Below the pieces are notes generated by a model. The model was not told the DNA's origin. It did not search any database and saw only the letters and a list, made by a program, of their open reading frames with translations. This document shows positions 7,119 through 13,896 of a stretch of 40,991 nucleotides of DNA, one piece after another. The stretch covers positions 1 through 40,991 of the IMG/VR virus record IMGVR_UViG_2896607866_000004; one strand, given 5' to 3'. The translations under genes and the position numbers were made by a program. This DNA comes from a virus. Lineage: Duplodnaviria > Heunggongvirae > Uroviricota > Caudoviricetes. Each line of letters starts with the position of its first letter. Position 1 is the stretch's first letter.

Positions 7119-7421
7119 ATGAGCAGAAAAACCCAACGTTACTCTAAAGAGTTCAAAGCCGAAGCTGTCAGAACGGTTCTTGAAAATCAACTTTCGATCA
7201 GTGAAGGCGCTTCCCGATTATCTCTTCCTGAAGGCACTTTAGGACAATGGGTTACCGCCGCCAGAAAAGGGCTCGGTACTCCTGGTTCCCGCACGGTGGC
7301 TGAACTGGAATCTGAAATTCTGCAACTGCGTAAGGCGTTAAATGAAGCTCGCCTTGAGCGCGATATATTAAAAAAAGCAACAGCGTATTTTGCACAGGAG
7401 TCGCTGAAAAATACGCGTTAA
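7119..7421 (+). CDS. IS3-family transposase OrfA (100 aa)
   Basis: MSRKTQRYSKEFKAEAVR… HTH/leucine-zipper-type OrfA; slippery site near its 3' end. Confidence 0.85.
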   Translation: MSRKTQRYSKEFKAEAVRTVLENQLSISEGASRLSLPEGTLGQWVTAARKGLGTPGSRTVAELESEILQLRKALNEARLERDILKKATAYFAQESLKNTR

Positions 7422-7456
7422 TCGAACAATGGCGACAACAATTTCCCATTGAAGCG

Positions 7457-8275
7457 ATGTGTCAGGTATTTGGTGTATCCAGGAGCGGTTATTACAACTG
7501 GGTACAGCATGAACCCTCAGACAGAAAACAAAGTGATGAGCGGCTAAAACTGGAGATTAAGGTGGCACATATCCGCACTCGCGAAACATATGGAACCCGG
7601 CGGCTCCAGACGGAGCTGGCAGAGAATGGCATCATCGTTGGTCGTGACCGACTGGCACGTCTTCGTAAGGAGCTAAGGCTACGCTGTAAGCAGAAACGCA
7701 AGTTCAGAGCGACTACGAACCCGAACCACAATCTGCCAGTTGCGCCAAATCTGCTGAACCAGACGTTCGCTCCTACAGCACCAAATCAGGTCTGGGTGGC
7801 GGACCTGACGTATGTTGCCACACAGGAGGGATGGTTGTACCTCGCTGGCATCAAAGATGTTTATACGTGCGAAATTGTCGGCTACGCCATGGGAGAGCGC
7901 ATGACAAAAGAGCTGACAGGTAAAGCCCTGTTTATGGCGCTCAGGAGCCAGCGCCCACCTGCCGGGCTAATCCACCACTCTGATCGAGGTTCACAGTACT
8001 GCGCATACGATTACCGGGTCATACAGGAGCAGTTTGGTCTGAAAACATCAATGTCGCGTAAAGGTAACTGTTACGACAACGCTCCGATGGAAAGCTTCTG
8101 GGGAACGCTGAAAAATGAGAGCCTGAGCCATTATCGTTTTAATAACCGGGATGAAGCCATCTCAGTAATACGGGAATACATTGAGATTTTCTACAATCGT
8201 CAGCGTCGTCACTCTCGTCTGGGGAATATCTCCCCGGCAGCCTTCAGGGAAAAATATCATCAGATGGCTGCTTAA
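7457..8275 (+). CDS. IS3-family transposase OrfB (DDE catalytic domain), expressed as OrfAB by -1 frameshift
   Basis: 272-aa ORF in the -1 frame relative to OrfA; 100% identical to the OrfB of copy 2. Confidence 0.85.
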   Translation: MCQVFGVSRSGYYNWVQHEPSDRKQSDERLKLEIKVAHIRTRETYGTRRLQTELAENGIIVGRDRLARLRKELRLRCKQKRKFRATTNPNHNLPVAPNLLNQTFAPTAPNQVWVADLTYVATQEGWLYLAGIKDVYTCEIVGYAMGERMTKELTGKALFMALRSQRPPAGLIHHSDRGSQYCAYDYRVIQEQFGLKTSMSRKGNCYDNAPMESFWGTLKNESLSHYRFNNRDEAISVIREYIEIFYNRQRRHSRLGNISPAAFREKYHQMAA

Positions 8276-9229: not shown

Positions 9230-9919
9230 CTAACCAAATCTGTTTATGTTGAATGGTACTGATGAGATCACTTTAGACTGGATATAAAGCAGAGCTAACC
9301 CCTCTTTTTCGATGCTCCATGGTTGATAATTGGGGTTATCAGATAACACCATGATTTTGCTTCCAATTTTTTGAAGCCTTTTCACGTAGCATTCTCCATC
9401 AAAACAAAATGCATAAATACCATCGCCATCAAAATAAGTTACTGTCTTATCAAGAAAAAGAAGGTCACCAGGTGAGATTGTGGGAGCCATACTGTCTCCT
9501 CTGGCGTTACCTATTTCTATATTTTTGAATGCCCGATTTCCAACAAGACGTCGGGCATATTCAGGATCAAGTTCTATTGAGCGCACTACATCTATCAAGT
9601 CACCACGGACATGAGTTCCATCACCGCAACTAAACTCAACATCAAGGACATTAAACACGACGCTATCTGTTCTTGTCTGGTGTTTCTCTTGCGAGGAAAA
9701 GGTTGGTGAGGAGTCTTCACCTAAGAACCAGGATTGTGGATAACCGCTAATCTCTGATAAATGCGCGAGCTTATCACTCCGTGGAAATGTTTTTCCTGTT
9801 GTCCAGTACTGCACTGATTGCGCACTCACACCTAACTTGCGGGCCAGTTGAGCCTGAGTCCATCCTTTTGCTTTCAGCATCGCGGCTATTCGATTTTCCG
9901 TGTTTTTGACGTTCTTCAT
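9230..9919 (-). CDS. cI: CI-type repressor (N-terminal HTH, C-terminal S24 LexA-like peptidase domain)
   Basis: HTH …GWTQAQLARKLGVSAQSVQYWTTGK…; C-terminal GDSMAPTI… with downstream Lys (…YVKRL…) typical of the Ser/Lys dyad. First ATG is at 9919 (ORF track extends to 9925 via TTG). Divergent from the cro-like gene. Confidence 0.85.
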   Translation of the reverse strand: MKNVKNTENRIAAMLKAKGWTQAQLARKLGVSAQSVQYWTTGKTFPRSDKLAHLSEISGYPQSWFLGEDSSPTFSSQEKHQTRTDSVVFNVLDVEFSCGDGTHVRGDLIDVVRSIELDPEYARRLVGNRAFKNIEIGNARGDSMAPTISPGDLLFLDKTVTYFDGDGIYAFCFDGECYVKRLQKIGSKIMVLSDNPNYQPWSIEKEGLALLYIQSKVISSVPFNINRFG

Positions 9920-10052
9920 GACCAAATCCTGTGGGTTTCTTTACAAGGATAAATCTTTACTTGATTTTAGTGTATTCGATCCTTTTGCAACTTGCATGTT
10001 AATTTAAACTTGATGTATTCTTGATTTATAAAGTTAATGTTGGTGCTTTGTT
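9920..10052. promoter_or_regulatory. divergent cI/cro promoter-operator region (OR-like)
   Basis: 133-bp AT-rich intergenic region between divergent cI and cro-like genes. Contains an 11-bp palindrome TGCAAcTTGCA (about 9986-9996) and three CTTGAT motifs (about 9958-10026). Individual operators not assigned. Confidence 0.5.
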
Positions 10053-10325
10053 ATGAAAGGAAATGATTACGACAAACTTCGTGCATTAATTGCGCAAAAT
10101 GCCATAGCGCGAAATCTGGGTGTGACACCGCAAGCGGTGAATCAGTGGTTTTCAAAAAGCACAATTCCTGCCCGTTTCGTTTTACGCGTATGTGAAGTAG
10201 TTGCATGTAAGGTCACGCCGCATGGCTTAAGGCCAGATCTTTATCCTCACCCTGAAGATGGAATTCCTGATTCGTTACGCAAAATTTCAAATCCAAGCTT
10301 AGCGCACACAGAGGATGAGAAGTGA
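10053..10325 (+). CDS. cro: Cro-like HTH protein (90 aa)
   Basis: Small ORF divergent from cI; motif …LGVTPQAVNQWFSKSTIPARFVLRV… resembles Cro/YdaS-type HTH. Confidence 0.6.
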   Translation: MKGNDYDKLRALIAQNAIARNLGVTPQAVNQWFSKSTIPARFVLRVCEVVACKVTPHGLRPDLYPHPEDGIPDSLRKISNPSLAHTEDEK

Positions 10326-10395
10326 TGGTGGTGATATGAGCGAAAAAATAACTATTAAATACGATGGGGCAACCATTTCGATTGCCCCAATCACA

Positions 10396-10689
10396 TTAGC
10401 GTTCGCTGAGAAGTTGTTGGTAAGCCTTAAAGGATGCGAACTGCATTCTACCTTTGGCATTGAGTCCAATGCCTTCGCTTGTACACCAGGTGATGAACTC
10501 GGTTGTATCCGCTTCAACTTTAATAACTCGTTGCCCGCTTCTTTCGACACGCTTAATCAATTTTTCAGCGTCGTGTTTCCACTCGGTGTAACTGTCGGAG
10601 AGCACATCTGCATCAGTAAAAATCTTTTTGAACTCATGATACTGAATAGCATCGCGAAACCAGAATAAACCAACGGCCTGAACTTTCAT
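10396..10689 (-). CDS. hypothetical protein (97 aa), opposite in orientation to the surrounding rightward operon
   Basis: ATG 10689 preceded by a near-perfect SD (AAGGAGGT, 6-nt spacer); balanced charged composition. Overlapping plus-strand ORF 10315..10668 is the less likely alternative. Confidence 0.5.
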   Translation of the reverse strand: MKVQAVGLFWFRDAIQYHEFKKIFTDADVLSDSYTEWKHDAEKLIKRVERSGQRVIKVEADTTEFITWCTSEGIGLNAKGRMQFASFKAYQQLLSER

Positions 10690-10802
10690 GTCGAACCTCC
10701 TTTGGTTCTTTTGTTTATAGGGATCAAAAGGATAACTGAAGGATGGTTCGGCACCAACAAGTACGAATGTGCGGAATCTTAAAAGAATTTATCCGTAAGG
10801 AG

Positions 10803-11516
10803 ATGGCAGTGAACACCGCAATTTTTAACGACAAAGTATCCATGACCAGCGTTGAAATCGCAGAGCTGGTTGGAAGTCAACACGGCAATGTCAGAATATC
10901 AATAGAGCGTCTGGCAAAACGCGGGGTGATTCAACTTCCTGCAATGCAAAAAGTTGAGAACGAACAATCATTTAGCCAAAACAAATTCACAAACGCATAT
11001 ATTTTCGAAGGCGAACAAGGCAAACGCGACAGCATCATTGTCGTCGCACAACTTTGCCCGGAATTCACTGCCCGCCTGGTAGATCGTTGGCGCGAACTGG
11101 AAGAGCAGGTGCGCAAACCAATGAGCGAAATCGAAATGGTTGCCGCGATGGCTCTTGAAGCCGTTCGTCAGCAAAAACGCCTCGACAAGATGGAAGAAAA
11201 AGTCAGTCACGTTACTGAAACTGTCGAACAAATCAAAAGAGGCACCATCCGCGATGGTTATGCAGGCTACCGTCAGCTGGTGGCGGAAACGGGTATGTCA
11301 GATGCGAAATGCCGCAATCTGGTGAACATCTATCAAATTCCAACTGATACTCACGAATTTCTTACTCCGGACGGATTGTTGTCACGCCGCGCAATTGTTG
11401 CAGTGGAACCGTTTATGGCTGCTTTCCATCGTATGATGAGCGAAGCGGAACCGAGAGGAACTCGTTGGTATCACCCGAAAATGGGGCTGTTCCAGGCGCT
11501 GGGCTGGCAGGGGTGA
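10803..11516 (+). CDS. antirepressor-like protein, Rha/AntA-type N-terminal domain plus KilAC (ANT) C-terminal domain
   Basis: N-terminus …SMTSVEIAELVGSQHGNVRISIERLAKRG…; C-terminus near-identical to that of 3557..4306. Start ambiguous (ATG 10803 abuts the SD; GTG 10809 has better spacing). Confidence 0.7.
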   Translation: MAVNTAIFNDKVSMTSVEIAELVGSQHGNVRISIERLAKRGVIQLPAMQKVENEQSFSQNKFTNAYIFEGEQGKRDSIIVVAQLCPEFTARLVDRWRELEEQVRKPMSEIEMVAAMALEAVRQQKRLDKMEEKVSHVTETVEQIKRGTIRDGYAGYRQLVAETGMSDAKCRNLVNIYQIPTDTHEFLTPDGLLSRRAIVAVEPFMAAFHRMMSEAEPRGTRWYHPKMGLFQALGWQG

Positions 11517-11536
11517 CGATGTTTACGGGTAATTTA

Positions 11537-11710
11537 TGCAAGTCCTCAATCGCTGGTTCCGTGACGGAAGGGGGCGTCGTGTTCACGTTATACGCTGGGA
11601 GCCTGAAACACAGCGGGTTATTTATCTGCGTGATGGTTATCCATATGAATGTTTCAGCCCGTTGTGGTTGTTCAGGCGTGATTTTGTTGAGTGCGAAGCG
11701 CCGCCATAAT
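11537..11710 (+). CDS. hypothetical small protein (57 aa)
   Basis: ATG 21 bp after the upstream stop; MQVLNRWFRDGRGRRVHVIRWEPETQRVIYLRDGYPYECFSPLWLFRRDFVECEAPP. Weak SD; under the ORF-track cutoff. Confidence 0.25.
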
Positions 11711-11730
11711 AACGGCGCGATAATGGAAAT

Positions 11731-12039
11731 TTACACGAAGCGGATCTGGAGTTTTTTCCCTGTTGCGCGTGCAAATTTTTTCAGTGTGGCAAATGATGGT
11801 CCGCTGACACCTGAGGCAAGATTGCTTTCCATTCTGGTGATGGCGGTTGCTTTGGTACCCATGCGTTCAGCAACTTCAGCCTGGGTGAGACCAGCTTCTT
11901 TGCGTGCGGCCAGCATTTCATCAAGCAGTGCGAACTCGTCGGCGATGGCGTCGTATTCTGCTTTAAAAGCCGGGTCATCCATCCATTTAGCTGCCATTTC
12001 ATCGTGTGTCATGATTGGTGGGTTACGTTTACCAGTCAT
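11731..12039 (-). CDS. HigA-like antitoxin (XRE-family HTH, 102 aa)
   Basis: HTH …LTQAEVAERMGTKATAITRMESNLASG…; AGGAGGT SD; start overlaps the 3' end of the upstream toxin gene by 11 nt. Confidence 0.7.
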   Translation of the reverse strand: MTGKRNPPIMTHDEMAAKWMDDPAFKAEYDAIADEFALLDEMLAARKEAGLTQAEVAERMGTKATAITRMESNLASGVSGPSFATLKKFARATGKKLQIRFV

Positions 12040-12358
12040 GCTTAACCTCCTTCATTCTGGTTTCAGCTTTTTTACGCTCAGCTGGTGGAGTTTTTTGAGT
12101 TTTCTTGATGAAGCTGTGCAGCATGATGATGCGCTTCCCTGTCAGTGTGCAGTAAAAAACGCGGGCAATGCCATCGCTGCCTTTAATCCGAAGCTCAAAA
12201 AGCCCATCACCAAAGGCGCTGGTGTGAGGTTCTCCGAGATTGCTGCCGTATACCTTCATGCGTTCAACAAGATGCTGGTATCTGGCACGCATACTCAATG
12301 GAAGCTGATCGACCTCCAGTCGGACCTCTTCACTGTAGTATTCGATAGTGTAGTTCAT
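12029..12358 (-). CDS. HigB-like toxin (RelE/ParE superfamily, Gp49-type), about 109 aa
   Basis: …YYSEEVRLEVDQLPLSMRARYQHLVERMKVYGSNLGEPHTSAFGDGLFELRIKGSDGIARVFYCTLTGKRIIMLHSFIKKTQKTP… resembles phage Gp49/HigB-type toxins; toxin precedes antitoxin. Start placed at internal ATG 12358 (ORF track uses TTG 12394). Confidence 0.6.
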   Translation of the reverse strand: MNYTIEYYSEEVRLEVDQLPLSMRARYQHLVERMKVYGSNLGEPHTSAFGDGLFELRIKGSDGIARVFYCTLTGKRIIMLHSFIKKTQKTPPAERKKAETRMKEVKHDW

Positions 12359-12395
12359 ACAGCAAAACATAACAAAATCGTTATATCTGCACAAT

Positions 12396-12460
12396 ATATT
12401 GATTCTGCAATTTCGGGACGTTACACTGTCTCTGCACCTTATAAAGCGGGTGCCGGGATT
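12396..12460 (+). repeat. 65-bp direct repeat, copy 1 (leader/5' region of Rha-like gene 1)
   Basis: ATATTGATTCTGCAATTTCGGGACGTTACACTGTCTCTGCACCTTATAAAGCGGGTGCCGGGATT; 64/65 identical to 13052..13116. Confidence 0.8.
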
Positions 12461-12676
12461 TGCACCCCGGAATTGTCAACGGCGATATACGACGCGCCAG
12501 CGTCTTTTTTATCGTCCGCGCTCACGCACGCCAGAATTATGGTGGGCTGGGCAGGGGAGCCGAAAGGCTCGCCGGTCTCCGTTGACGCCGGTAGTGCAAA
12601 CCCTGTTCAGTCCGCCACCAGCGAGATTTGCACCTCCGGTGGTGGAAGTTTTCCACAGTCAACGGAGGCTGCCATC

Positions 12677-13039
12677 ATGGCTACAGTCCCAACCCACTCA
12701 TTCCTCAAAATTGAGACCGTCAACGGCAAGGCCGTTATTTTCTCTTTGCATGTGGCCTGCCACTTTAAGCGCATGCACCAGAACATCGTAGACAAAATCG
12801 AGTATCTGAACTGCTCGCGCGAATTTTTTACCCGCAATTTCATACCGGGTACTTACCACATCTATGACGACTCTCTGCGTGGTTATTACATCACCCTTGA
12901 TGGTCTGATGCTGCTTCAGCTTGGGTTAAGTCTGCGCACAATGCGGTACTACGAGAGTTGCATTGAAGCGTTCCATGAGGCTGAAACCGTCCAGGTGCAT
13001 TCCGCTTTCCGTCGTCATCAACGGGAGGTGCACCTATGA
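12677..13039 (+). CDS. Rha-like phage regulatory protein 1 (120 aa from ATG 12677; may extend upstream)
   Basis: GGAGG SD 8 nt before ATG 12677; MATVPTHSFLKIETVNGKAVIFSLHVACHFKRMHQNIVDKIEYLNCSREFF… resembles the Rha N-terminal domain. The frame is open far upstream (artefactual 524-aa ORF) but has no canonical start near the conserved leader. Confidence 0.5.
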   Translation: MATVPTHSFLKIETVNGKAVIFSLHVACHFKRMHQNIVDKIEYLNCSREFFTRNFIPGTYHIYDDSLRGYYITLDGLMLLQLGLSLRTMRYYESCIEAFHEAETVQVHSAFRRHQREVHL

Positions 13040-13896
13040 TCCGCTACCTGAATATTGATTCTGCAATTTCGGGACGTTACACTGTCTCCGCACCTTATAA
13101 AGCGGGTGCCGGGATTGGCGTCCTGAAATTCAATATAGAGCATAACCGCGCTCATGCGGTTTTTTCGTGTCATGAGCATTGCTACGCCCAAATTATGGTG
13201 GGGCGTGCAGGGGCATCGCAAGATGCGCCGGGTTCTATGTTGACCGGTTACGCCAACCCTGTACGTCTCACCACCTCTGTGATTGGCGTCCCATGTGATG
13301 AGTTCTTTGAATTCAACATAGGGGCTGTCACCATGACTACTCTCCCAACCCTCTCTCAACCTGAAATTGCCATCGTTGATGGTCAGGCTGTTACTTCATC
13401 CCTGGCTGTTGCTAACTTCTTCTCTAAACGTCATGACGATGTTCTGAAAAAGATCCGCATTTTGGATTGTTCTCCAGAGTTTTGTGCCCGCAATTTTGCG
13501 GAGACATCAATTTTGGTACGCCAGCCCAACGGCGGTACTCGCAAACTTCCCTGCTACCAAATCACCCGCGACGGCTTCGCCTTCCTTGCTATGGGCTTCA
13601 CTGGTAAACGTGCCGCCCGGTTCAGAGAGGCATACATCAATGCCTTTAACCAGATGGAGAGGAGCTTATCAGGAGCTGGTGCGGCTGACATGTCATCTGT
13701 CGCACAAAACGCCAGAGGCGTATACCTGCATTTGCGTGAAATCCATCAAATCTGGACAAGCCAGCTTTACCCAATGCTTAAGGCCGTTGAATCTCCGCTG
13801 GCTGGCAAACTGTACGACCGTGTAGGTGATGCTGTTTTTGGTGCTGCACTTGTTGATTCCAGGCTGAATGGTTCTGACAAGGAGGTGCGCCCATGA
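13036..13896 (+). CDS. Rha-like phage regulatory protein 2 (286 aa from ATG 13036; alternative start ATG 13333 giving 187 aa)
   Basis: GGAGGTG SD 5 nt before ATG 13036, which overlaps the upstream TGA. Rha motif …AIVDGQAVTSSLAVANFFSKRHDDVLKKIRILDCSPEFCARNF…YQITRDGFAFLAMGFTGKRAARFREAYINAFNQME… begins at residue 100. Confidence 0.6.
   Translation: MIRYLNIDSAISGRYTVSAPYKAGAGIGVLKFNIEHNRAHAVFSCHEHCYAQIMVGRAGASQDAPGSMLTGYANPVRLTTSVIGVPCDEFFEFNIGAVTMTTLPTLSQPEIAIVDGQAVTSSLAVANFFSKRHDDVLKKIRILDCSPEFCARNFAETSILVRQPNGGTRKLPCYQITRDGFAFLAMGFTGKRAARFREAYINAFNQMERSLSGAGAADMSSVAQNARGVYLHLREIHQIWTSQLYPMLKAVESPLAGKLYDRVGDAVFGAALVDSRLNGSDKEVRP
13052..13116 (+). repeat. 65-bp direct repeat, copy 2 (5' region of Rha-like gene 2)
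   Basis: 64/65 identical to 12396..12460; the single difference (TCT/TCC) is synonymous in the open frame. Confidence 0.8.

What the first reader, a model, noticed from the sequence alone, without database searches (positions are those of the whole stretch)
10396..10689. Antisense-oriented gene with near-perfect Shine-Dalgarno wedged between cro and the antirepressor gene
A 97-aa ORF on the minus strand, with AAGGAGGT 6 nt upstream of its ATG, interrupts an otherwise rightward operon directly after the cro-like gene. Such oppositely oriented single genes in phage operons are typical morons with their own promoter. The product has no family I recognise.
Basis: seen in the sequence. Interest (0 to 1): 0.4.

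Follow-up and report, generated by a model that had tools for sequence, protein, structure and literature searches.

The report
Backward-facing prophage accessory gene cassette
A real, conserved small gene of unknown function sits backwards between the cro and Rha genes of an E. coli-type prophage as a swappable accessory ('moron') cassette. It is ordinary in kind, but the opposite strand across it is also kept readable, which was not expected.

Summary

It is a moron by the classical test. Phage PhiR49_2 has the same cI/cro, but there cro is directly coupled to the Rha/Roi gene. Other E. coli prophages carry the identical 74-nt leader, joined exactly at the ATG to different cargo (a BssS-family gene, or another ORF). 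Closer relatives (28-59% identity) lie in phage immunity regions, antisense to lytic genes.

A 3' hairpin shows compensatory and G.U changes that fit only the leftward RNA. The promoter is only a weak consensus match. The SD-pairing inverted repeat fits the rightward RNA better.

The overlapping plus ORF has an unconstrained sequence (dN/dS about 1). Even so, it is kept stop-free in 15 of 16 lineages, usually with its own SD and start. Biochemical function remains unknown.

The parts
10396..10689 (-). The 97-aa gene ('X97'), PHROG 4753 family; the protein-coding frame that is under selection
   Evidence: ORF. PHROG 4753 E=1e-48 over 1-97/97. Variable columns by codon position 45/22/82. dN/dS 0.03-0.2. 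AF2 pLDDT 95.1.
10695..10702 (-). Shine-Dalgarno AAGGAGGT, 5 nt before the ATG
   Evidence: Sequence. Conserved as (A/G)GGAG in all relatives.
10729..10757 (-). Putative weak sigma-70 promoter: -35 TTGGTG (10757..10752), 17-nt spacer, -10 TATCCT (10734..10729); predicted start near 10722
   Evidence: Read from the sequence. The position is conserved in relatives as TTGG(T/A)G-17-TAyyCT. It falls below the scan's 9/12 threshold, and the scan found no site. Inferred, not shown.
10688..10754 (.). Leader inverted repeat: arm 10754..10737 pairs with arm 10704..10688 (SD plus start codon); the loop is C/A-rich on the minus strand
   Evidence: RNA fold -22.4 kcal/mol, z=-3.45. Equivalent pairing in lineages with unrelated sequence. 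On the 16 core pairs, 79.5% of cells pair on the minus-strand RNA and 92% on the plus-strand RNA (derived). No Rfam match.
10358..10397 (-). 3' hairpin starting in the stop codon (inner stem 10389..10365) with a U-rich tail; probable terminator or 3' stabiliser of the leftward transcript
   Evidence: Terminator-like site. -19.9 kcal/mol on the minus strand against -14.2 on the plus strand. Inner 9 pairs are paired in 106 of 108 cells, with GC/GU/AU/UA exchanges that form pairs only on the minus strand.
10336..10668 (+). Plus-strand ORF in the codon-aligned antisense frame (ATG 10336, or 10315). It starts 10 nt after the cro stop and ends 19 nt before the leader hairpin. Candidate 'bridge ORF' of the rightward operon
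   Evidence: ORF. dN/dS 0.6-2.3, so the product is unconstrained. It is nevertheless stop-free over X97 codons 28-97 in 15 of 16 lineages, and 12 of 15 lineages have an SD-like motif plus an in-frame start.
10053..10325 (+). cro-like gene; left boundary of the insertion (homology to PhiR49_2 ends at about 10313)
10809..11516 (+). Rha/Roi-family gene; right neighbour, 78% identical to Roi of PhiR49_2

Best explanation
The 97-aa minus-strand ORF is a functional gene carried on a self-contained, exchangeable accessory ('moron') cassette of about 495 bp (roughly 10314..10808). The cassette is inserted between cro and the Rha/Roi gene of a lambdoid prophage.

Shown:
- The protein frame is under strong purifying selection.
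- It folds as a compact beta-alpha-alpha-beta-alpha-alpha domain.
- A related phage lacks the cassette.
- The same leader drives other cargo genes in the same slot.
- An RNA hairpin follows the stop codon on the leftward transcript.

Inferred:
- The gene is transcribed leftward from a weak promoter (TTGGTG-17-TATCCT, start near 10722). This would occur while pR is repressed, that is, in the lysogen.
- Translation is efficient, from a C/A-rich leader with a consensus SD, and the transcript ends at the 3' hairpin.
- During lytic growth, rightward pR transcription and translation run across the cassette and should silence it.

The product has no DNA-binding motif, no membrane segment and no catalytic signature. 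My best guess, at about 0.3 within this explanation, is that it acts as a small dimeric protein-binding module. Its target could be either the immunity/lysis-lysogeny circuitry or incoming phages, to the benefit of the lysogen.
For: Real gene:
- PHROG 4753 E=1e-48.
- 1125 cluster representatives at E<=1e-3.
- Codon-position variation 45/22/82.
- dN/dS 0.03-0.2.
- AF2 pLDDT 95.1, pTM 0.85 with a 74-sequence alignment.

Insertion:
- PhiR49_2 shares cI/cro at 94.7% identity up to window position 10313.
- Its cro stop overlaps the start (ATGA) of Roi, which is 78% identical to the window's Rha.

Exchangeable slot:
- 13 of 88 E. coli genomes have only the 74-nt leader (96-97% identity).
- There it is fused at the ATG to a BssS-family gene (Pfam BssS 4e-15) or to another ORF.

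Mobility across immunity types: one cassette occurs with several different cI/cro pairs.

Position of relatives at 28-59% identity:
- Next to cro, CII (Phage_CP76) or cI, and opposite to the lytic operon: L038, L041, L092, L093, L002.
- Divergent from cro and upstream of a cI-like gene: L091.
- Divergent from CII: L039.
- Left of cI: L001.

3' hairpin: covariation and G.U pairs fit only the leftward RNA.

General knowledge: genes antisense to prophage lytic genes, with their own promoter, are characteristic accessory loci (PMC7067206).
Against: - No promoter reached the scan's threshold. The proposed one matches only 7 of 12 consensus positions.
- The U-tract after the 3' hairpin is interrupted and poorly conserved.
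- G+C content (0.42-0.45) does not differ from the neighbours.
- There is no expression data.
- There is no functional homologue. PADLOC, NCBIfam and Pfam are all negative.
- Two public copies carry premature stops.
- More distant family members occur outside prophages, for example in a chromosomal context in L103. The immunity-region association therefore holds only for the closer clade.
Confidence: 0.6

Rival explanations
1. Both strands are translated. X97 is read leftward in the lysogen. The plus ORF (10336..10668) is read rightward as part of the pR operon. Its product is irrelevant: its translation keeps ribosomes on the roughly 480-nt reverse-oriented insert. This prevents Rho-dependent polarity and/or couples translation from cro to the next gene. 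This reading is compatible with the best explanation and extends it.
For: - 0 of 122 Leu/Ser codons at X codons 28 to the end are TTA/CTA/TCA (which would be antisense stops), against 10 of 35 in codons 1-27.
- Per-lineage chance of no stop is 0.05-0.8. The product is 4e-9 over 15 lineages, or about 1e-6 for the 7 most independent.
- The other frames carry 0-9 stops each, almost always at least one.
- 12 of 15 lineages have an SD-like motif 4-9 nt before an in-frame ATG/GTG just outside X's 3' end, for example AAGGAGG-6-ATG in L039 and GGAGG-6-ATG in L033 and L093.
- In L004, L033, L034 and L035 the ORF ends overlapping the next gene's start (TGAATG, ATGA, ATGAGTGA).
- In the cassette-free phage, cro and roi are coupled by ATGA.
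- The leader hairpin pairs better on the rightward RNA.
- A second reverse cassette in the same operon (HigBA-like, 11731..12394) is also spanned by a stop-free plus frame: 312 codons, against 13 and 20 stops in the other frames.
Against: - dN/dS is about 1 in that frame.
- In the window the SD is only GGTGAT.
- The BssS-cargo cassette in the same slot has no such ORF.
- L094 has 4 antisense stops.
- The codon-aligned antisense frame is intrinsically stop-poor.
- Lineages are not fully independent.
- A HigBA homologue in another context has internal stops, but another in a different context is nearly open, so that control is ambiguous.
Confidence: 0.35
2. The plus-strand ORF 10315..10668 is the only real gene, and the 97-aa ORF is its shadow.
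For: - The plus ORF follows cro in the operon direction and is open in nearly all relatives.
- The depositors of phage EKP1 annotated that strand.
Against: - The substitution pattern fits the minus frame: variable columns 45/22/82 by codon position.
- dN/dS is 0.03-0.2 in the minus frame against 0.6-2.3 in the plus frame.
- PHROG, AF2 and family evidence all belong to the minus-strand product.
- The plus product has no family hit.
Confidence: 0.03
3. X97 is the first gene of a CII-activated establishment transcript, analogous to lambda pRE or 186 pE. The transcript would run leftward from the cro/cII interval, antisense through cro into cI. X97 would then be a lysogeny-establishment factor rather than a constitutive moron.
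For: - In L004, L034, L035, L041 and L092 the gene lies directly beside a Phage_CP76 (CII) gene, pointing towards cro and cI.
- The promoter is weak, as activator-dependent promoters are.
- In L091 the gene sits directly upstream of the cI-like gene on the same strand.
Against: - The window and about 30 related loci have Rha, not CII, as the neighbour, with the same leader.
- The leader also serves unrelated cargo.
- The conserved hairpin after the stop would hinder read-through to cI.
- No CII-type repeat was recognised by eye in the leader.
Confidence: 0.12
4. X97 is a regulator of the Aca2/SO3848 type, or a decoy of one. As a stand-alone copy of the C-terminal dimerisation domain, it would titrate or poison an HTH partner.
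For: - Foldseek also ranks 2OX6 first.
- SO3848 is described as HTH plus a C-terminal beta-alpha-alpha-alpha-beta domain with two extra helices (PMC8434428). That topology matches X97.
Against: - X97 has no HTH.
- Sequence identity is 8-13%, and the Foldseek E-value is only 0.45.
- Which residues of 2OX6 align was not reported.
- No partner with this domain was found in the window.
- The leader repeat cannot be an X97 operator, because the leader also serves other cargo.
Confidence: 0.1

Closest known systems
Lambdoid-phage morons (accessory cassettes such as lambda bor/lom/rexAB, HK97 gp15; definition of Hendrix and colleagues; transcriptomic examples in PMC7067206)
   Same: It is inserted between genes that are adjacent in a related phage and is oriented against the lytic operon. 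It has its own translation signals and a 3' hairpin. It shows presence/absence and cargo polymorphism at one slot.
   Different: There is no compositional difference from the flanks, and the promoter is weak and unproven. The slot (between cro and the next early gene) lies inside the pR operon rather than at the classic late-region or cI-N sites. The opposite strand is kept open.
SO3848 of Shewanella oneidensis (PDB 2OX6), an Aca2/YdiL-like HTH regulator
   Different: X97 lacks the HTH half, and sequence similarity is undetectable. Neither protein has a known function.
IS10 'fold-back inhibition' and RNA-IN/RNA-OUT (recalled from established literature; not tested here)
   Same: An upstream segment complementary to the SD and start lies between the -35 and -10 of the element's own promoter. 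Transcripts from that promoter would lack it, whereas read-through or opposite-strand RNAs contain both arms.
   Different: Here the pairing is better on the opposite-strand (rightward) RNA. No antisense promoter is evident, and the element is a phage cassette, not a transposase gene.
Lambda cro-cII interval (nutR/tR1, pRE, oop)
   Same: Same genomic position. Leftward transcription converges with pR between cro and cII.
   Different: This cassette carries a protein-coding gene with its own SD and terminator. No nut, put or oop-like RNA family matched.
BssS-family prophage genes
   Same: They occupy the same cro|Rha slot behind the identical 74-nt leader in other E. coli prophages.
   Different: The protein is unrelated. 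That cassette has a symmetric A-tract/stem/T-tract terminator and no spanning plus ORF.

Membership tests
PHROG 4753 (phage protein family, unknown function) | Full-length profile match | tested here: met
   E=1e-48, 164 bits, residues 1-97 on profile positions 1-97 of 97.
Moron / prophage accessory cassette | Absent between the same flanking genes in a closely related phage | tested here: met
   In PhiR49_2, cI/cro are 94.7% identical. The cro stop overlaps the start of Roi, which is 78% identical to the window's Rha.
Moron / prophage accessory cassette | Own promoter | tested here: inconclusive
   The consensus scan found none. A positionally conserved TTGGTG-17-TATCCT is present. There is no expression data.
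Moron / prophage accessory cassette | Own terminator | tested here: inconclusive
   The hairpin is conserved, with covariation on the correct strand and -19.9 kcal/mol. The U-tract is interrupted and variable.
Moron / prophage accessory cassette | Nucleotide composition different from the flanks | tested here: not met
   GC is 0.42-0.45 across the cassette, against 0.37-0.47 in cI/cro/Rha. This is a frequent feature of morons, not an obligatory one.
Moron / prophage accessory cassette | Expressed from the repressed prophage | not testable with these tools
   Needs RNA-seq or a reporter in a lysogen.
Aca2/YdiL/SO3848-like HTH regulators | [quoted passage not shown] | tested here: not met
   No HTH family hit in X97 or in any of 74 relatives. 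The model has no three-helix HTH unit.
Aca2/YdiL/SO3848-like HTH regulators | C-terminal beta-alpha...beta dimerisation domain | tested here: inconclusive
Type II toxin-antitoxin pair | Conserved adjacent partner gene in an operon | tested here: not met
   X97 is solitary in the window. The small upstream ORFs seen in four distant loci are not alike.
Known anti-phage defence systems (PADLOC 2.0) | Profile match to a component | tested here: not met
   0 families for X97, P0047 and P0021.
Rfam RNA families (leader and hairpins) | Covariance-model match | tested here: not met
   No match at E<=1 in 9900..11000.

The most novel reading that the evidence does not exclude
The cassette is read in both directions as a design principle. 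A structured protein (X97) is made leftward in the lysogen. A sequence-unconstrained 'bridge ORF' on the exact antisense frame is kept open, with its own SD/start and coupling to the next gene. Ribosomes can thereby carry the lytic pR operon across a reverse-oriented insert. The same operon's HigBA-like reverse cassette shows the same feature. This would suggest a general rule for how antisense morons are tolerated inside essential phage operons.
Probability: 0.3. Interest if true: 0.7.

Novelty: new member of a known kind. Interest (0 to 1): 0.42.

Why it matters
The gene belongs to a large, unnamed protein family (over a thousand 50%-identity clusters) with an almost unprecedented fold. Its closer members sit beside the cro/cII/cI switch of temperate phages from several bacterial groups. 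That makes it a good candidate for an unrecognised lysogen-expressed factor in immunity, exclusion or switch stabilisation.

The cassette also offers a clean natural system of one leader with several cargos. It could test a simple and, as far as I could find, undescribed idea: that reverse-oriented inserts in phage operons are kept translatable on the operon strand to avoid polarity.

Tried and rejected
Searches that found nothing:
- Pfam, NCBIfam and PADLOC on X97, and Pfam on 74 relatives.
- Sequence search of PDB with two profiles.
- Rfam on the region.
- The AlphaFold-database fold libraries were unavailable.
- BFVD gave only two uncharacterised viral proteins.
- The search for related loci failed with the diverse alignments. 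Genome and metagenome scans added few new lineages.
- A literature search for the accession and the PHROG number gave no papers.
- The Gifsy defence protein GiPD474 is an ATPase and is unrelated.

Ideas dropped:
- X97 as an autoregulator binding the leader repeat. Rejected because the identical leader drives BssS-like and other cargo.
- A conserved small upstream partner ORF (TA-like). The four candidates are not homologous.
- A CsrA-type GGA hairpin. Only one GGA site is present.
- A plasmid-borne family. There are only 2 plasmid hits.
- The leader repeat as a simple SD-sequestering riboregulator of X97. This is weakened because pairing is systematically better on the opposite strand, and because the proposed -10 lies between the two arms.
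- The plus-strand hairpin 10693..10708 with a T-run flagged as terminator-like. It is just the complement of the SD region and is not conserved as a terminator.

Full report
**Observation.** The minus-strand ORF 10396..10689 (ATG, 97 codons, TAA) is present.
- an S24/HTH cI-like repressor at 9230..9925 (-);
- a cro/YdaS-type gene at 10053..10325 (+);
- a Rha-family, Ant-like gene whose likely start is GTG 10809 (+).

A plus-strand ORF, 10315..10668, overlaps the gene in the exactly codon-aligned antisense frame.

**Which strand codes.**
- The 97-aa product matches PHROG 4753 (unknown function) end to end at E=1e-48. The plus product matches nothing.
- NCBI's pipeline annotates the minus ORF (WP_000867908.1) in a 100% identical E. 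coli chromosome.
- Among 19 distinct full-length copies, variable columns by X97 codon position are 45/22/82.
- Pairwise dN/dS is 0.03-0.2 in the X97 frame, against 0.6-2.3 in the antisense frame.

The minus frame therefore carries the constrained protein. Two public copies have premature stops (L010, L031).

**Family and fold.**
- A word-indexed search found only 18 close clusters, all 'hypothetical'.
- An exhaustive profile search found 1125 representatives at E<=1e-3 and 96 at E<=1e-10. Most are about 95-105 aa. A few carry two or three tandem copies (P0026, P0039, P0021).
- Nearly invariant positions are W10, D26, W37, G52, F65, W68, C69 and R81.
- None of 74 members has a Pfam signal.
- AlphaFold with a shallow alignment was poor (pLDDT 63.6). 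With 74 diverse sequences it gave pLDDT 95.1 and pTM 0.85. The topology is beta(5-10), alpha(14-23), alpha(34-50), beta(54-59), alpha(62-72), alpha(78-96).
- Foldseek also ranked 2OX6 first, but weakly (E=0.45).
- BFVD returned two uncharacterised viral proteins.
- SO3848 is described as an Aca2-like regulator. It has an N-terminal HTH and a C-terminal dimerisation domain of beta1-alpha5-(extra helix)-alpha6-beta2, plus two extra helices (PMC8434428).

That topology equals X97's. I therefore infer that X97 resembles the non-DNA-binding half of SO3848. The tools did not report residue ranges. X97 has no HTH.

**Genomic context.**
- The cassette is in 75 of 5426 complete E. coli genomes, always chromosomal.
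- It is rare in isolated phages (2 distant hits) and in plasmids (2 hits).
- In about 30 IMG/VR prophage contigs it is always divergent from a Rha gene, about 120 bp away. The cI/cro side changes between several immunity types.
- Phage PhiR49_2 has the same cI/cro (94.7% identity, ending at window position 10313). Its cro stop overlaps the start (ATGA) of Roi, which is 78% identical to the window's Rha. Relative to it, about 495 bp (10314..10808) are an insertion.
- In 13 of the 88 E. coli genomes with any match, only the 74-nt leader (window 10687..10760) is present, at 96-97% identity.
- In the two such loci I read, the leader is joined exactly at the ATG to other genes in the same cro|Rha slot. 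One is a BssS-family protein (Pfam 4e-15). The other is an ORF beginning MNLMNVYEK.

The slot is therefore an exchangeable accessory position, and the leader is not specific to X97.

**Relatives elsewhere.**

| Locus | Identity or query protein | Arrangement |
|---|---|---|
| L004, L034, L035 | 79-80% | cro, then X reversed, then CII (Phage_CP76, confirmed for L004) |
| L033, L036 | 75-77% | cro, then X reversed, then another small gene |
| L038 | 59% | cro, a CII-like ORF (not Pfam-checked), then X |
| L002 (deposited as Elizabethkingia phage EKP1) | 36% | cI, cro, then X; the depositors annotated the opposite strand |
| L041 | 34% | cro, X, CP76 |
| L092 | 32% | cI, cro, X, CP76 |
| L093 | 30% | cI, cro, two genes, then X |
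| L091 | 39% | X divergent from cro and directly upstream of a cI-like gene |
| L039 (Comamonas) | 28% | X divergent from CP76 |
| L001 (Klebsiella phage Kp4865-4) | 34% | X left of cI, antisense to the leftward operon |
| L094 | 43% | X next to int/xis |

More distant members are not all phage-borne:
- L103 is in an ordinary chromosomal neighbourhood.
- L101 lies directly after a NucC-like PD-(D/E)xK nuclease, DUF6602.
- The three-copy protein P0021 lies next to an AbiEi gene.

These are hints only.

**Expression signals, leftward.**
- The consensus scan found no promoter.
- By eye, TTGGTG (10757..10752), a 17-nt spacer and TATCCT (10734..10729) are conserved in position in all alignable relatives as TTGG(T/A)G-17-TAyyCT. 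Analogous -10-like hexamers appear at the same place in unrelated leaders.
- Right after the stop, a hairpin (10397..10358; inner stem 10389..10365) folds at -19.9 kcal/mol on the minus strand and -14.2 on the plus strand.
- Across 12 distinct sequences, down to 51% protein identity, the nine inner pairs are paired in 106 of 108 cells. The exchanges (GC/GU, CG/UG/UA, AU/GU/GC, UG/UA) keep pairing only on the minus-strand RNA.
- The U-rich tail is interrupted and variable.

I read this hairpin as a terminator or 3' stabiliser of moderate strength.

**The leader repeat.**
- An upstream arm (10754..10737) is complementary to the SD/start arm (10704..10688). The fold is -22.4 kcal/mol with z=-3.45.
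- The same architecture recurs in lineages with unrelated sequence (L041, L039, L040, L093, L076, L001): an upstream C/U-rich arm, a C/A-rich loop, then the SD arm. Duplex z-scores are mostly -1.2 to -4.2; most of the distant ones lie at -1.2 to -2.6.
- However, the complementary RNA pairs better almost everywhere. Duplex energies are typically 5-10 kcal/mol lower. There are 43 G.U in 279 pairs, against 16 in 238.
- On the aligned enterobacterial set, 80.7% of cells pair on the X97-sense strand and 86.6% on the rightward strand. Without the outermost pair this is 79.5% against 92% (derived).
- The proposed -10 lies between the two arms, so the gene's own transcripts would lack the upstream arm.

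I conclude that the repeat is selected. It more probably acts in the rightward pR transcript, or on read-through RNAs, than as a riboregulator of X97. Its role is unresolved. No Rfam family matches.

**The plus ORF.** Its sequence is unconstrained, yet it is kept open.
- In 17 lineages, 0 of 122 Leu/Ser codons at X codons 28 to the end are TTA, CTA or TCA (the only codons that make antisense stops). In codons 1-27 the count is 10 of 35. Local usage of these codons is 5-26%.
- The per-lineage chance of no stop is 0.05-0.8. The product is 4e-9 for 15 lineages, or about 1e-6 for the 7 most independent ones. The other frames carry 0-9 stops each, almost always at least one.
- Twelve of 15 lineages have an SD-like motif 4-9 nt before an in-frame start, 9-117 nt beyond X's stop.
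- The ORF ends 6-78 nt before the complement of X's ATG. In four lineages it instead runs on and overlaps the next gene's start.
- In the window the start is ATG 10336, 10 nt after the cro stop, preceded by GGTGAT.
- Exceptions: L094 has 4 stops, and the BssS cassette has no such ORF.
- A second reverse cassette in the same operon is spanned by a plus frame with no stop in 312 codons, against 13 and 20 stops in the other frames. It consists of a Gp49/HigB-like gene (12029..12394) plus an HTH antitoxin-like gene (11731..12039). That frame runs into the next Ash/Rha gene. Homologous cassettes give mixed support.

My reading, which is inference, is that translation across the reverse insert is what is selected. 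Rho is known to terminate untranslated transcripts (see the abstract of PMC11551753 listed).

**Mechanism.** The part that is shown is the cassette logic: an accessory gene under purifying selection, inserted in reverse in the early-right operon, with a strong SD and a strand-specific 3' hairpin. Leftward expression in the lysogen, and silencing by pR transcription and translation during lytic growth, are inferred. The biochemical role is unknown. The fold, the tandem-copy relatives and the lack of catalytic or DNA-binding signatures point to a small oligomeric binding module. Its persistent position at the cro/cII/cI switch and the loose defence-gene neighbours of distant members leave two candidates: switch stabilisation and protection of the lysogen.

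**Novelty and score.** As a gene it is a new, uncharacterised member of a known kind (a moron). The family's size, fold and position, and the open opposite strand, lift it above routine. I score interest at 0.42. The bidirectional-reading idea would merit about 0.7 if confirmed, and I give it a probability of about 0.3.

Noticed in passing
window 11731..12394 (-) and 11465..13039 (+): A second reverse-oriented cassette lies between Rha and an Ash/Rha gene. It consists of a Gp49/HigB-like toxin (12029..12394, Pfam Gp49 9e-26) and an HTH_3 antitoxin-like gene (11731..12039). A plus-strand frame is stop-free for 312 codons across it, against 13 and 20 stops in the other frames. That frame continues in frame into the Ash/Rha coding region and ends with an ATGA overlap on the next gene at 13036. 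Homologous cassettes are fully open in the same context (L100), nearly open in another (L099), and have 3 stops in a third (L098).
   Followed up: partly
L095 2252..2574 and L096 2050..2576 (E. coli ETEC1738 / ETEC1732); window 10687..10760: The 74-nt leader (putative promoter, 5' UTR, SD, ATG) is reused at 96-97% identity with other cargo in the same cro|Rha slot. One cargo is an 83-aa BssS-family protein with a symmetric A-tract/stem/T-tract terminator. The other is an unannotated ORF of about 151 aa beginning MNLMNVYEK, which overlaps a plus-strand gene called by PGAP.
   Followed up: partly
window 10743..10808: The stretch between the leader and the Rha start holds a remnant of another gene's 5' end. 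It reads 'KEFIRKE', compared with 'MNPADFIRKHI' at the start of the right-hand neighbour in L033 and L036. This marks an old recombination joint.
   Followed up: no
L002 4001..4285 (phage deposited as Elizabethkingia phage EKP1, OM284015): The depositors annotated the opposite-strand ORF ('hypothetical protein 21') instead of the X97 homologue. The early region of this phage looks like that of enterobacterial lambdoid phages.
   Followed up: no
L010 and L031 (IMG/VR copies): Two otherwise near-identical copies of the gene carry premature stop codons (E36* and W37*). The gene is therefore dispensable in some hosts.
   Followed up: no
L101 414..1512; L104 279..2572: Distant family members have defence-type neighbours. 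P0047 lies 58 nt downstream of a NucC-like PD-(D/E)xK nuclease (DUF6602; PADLOC NucC effector 1e-14). The three-copy protein P0021 lies beside an AbiEi antitoxin gene. There are only two such cases.
   Followed up: partly
window 7119..8275; L003 (E. coli FDAARGOS_943): An IS3-family element (annotated as IS600 in the identical E. coli record) sits left of the immunity region. In that record the prophage lies next to mlrA, has a frameshifted integrase and is riddled with IS66-family copies, so the prophage is probably defective. X97 is nevertheless intact.
   Followed up: no
window 12400..13039 and 13036..13896: Two consecutive Ash+Rha-type coding regions share the motif IDSAISGRYTVSAPYKAGAGI. 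They look like tandem paralogues downstream of the first Rha gene.
   Followed up: no
window 10693..10708 (+): The scan flags a small plus-strand hairpin (GAACCTCCTTTGGTTC) followed by TTTTGTTTAT as terminator-like. It lies 25 nt after the plus ORF's stop and is the complement of X97's SD region. The U-run is not conserved in relatives.
   Followed up: partly
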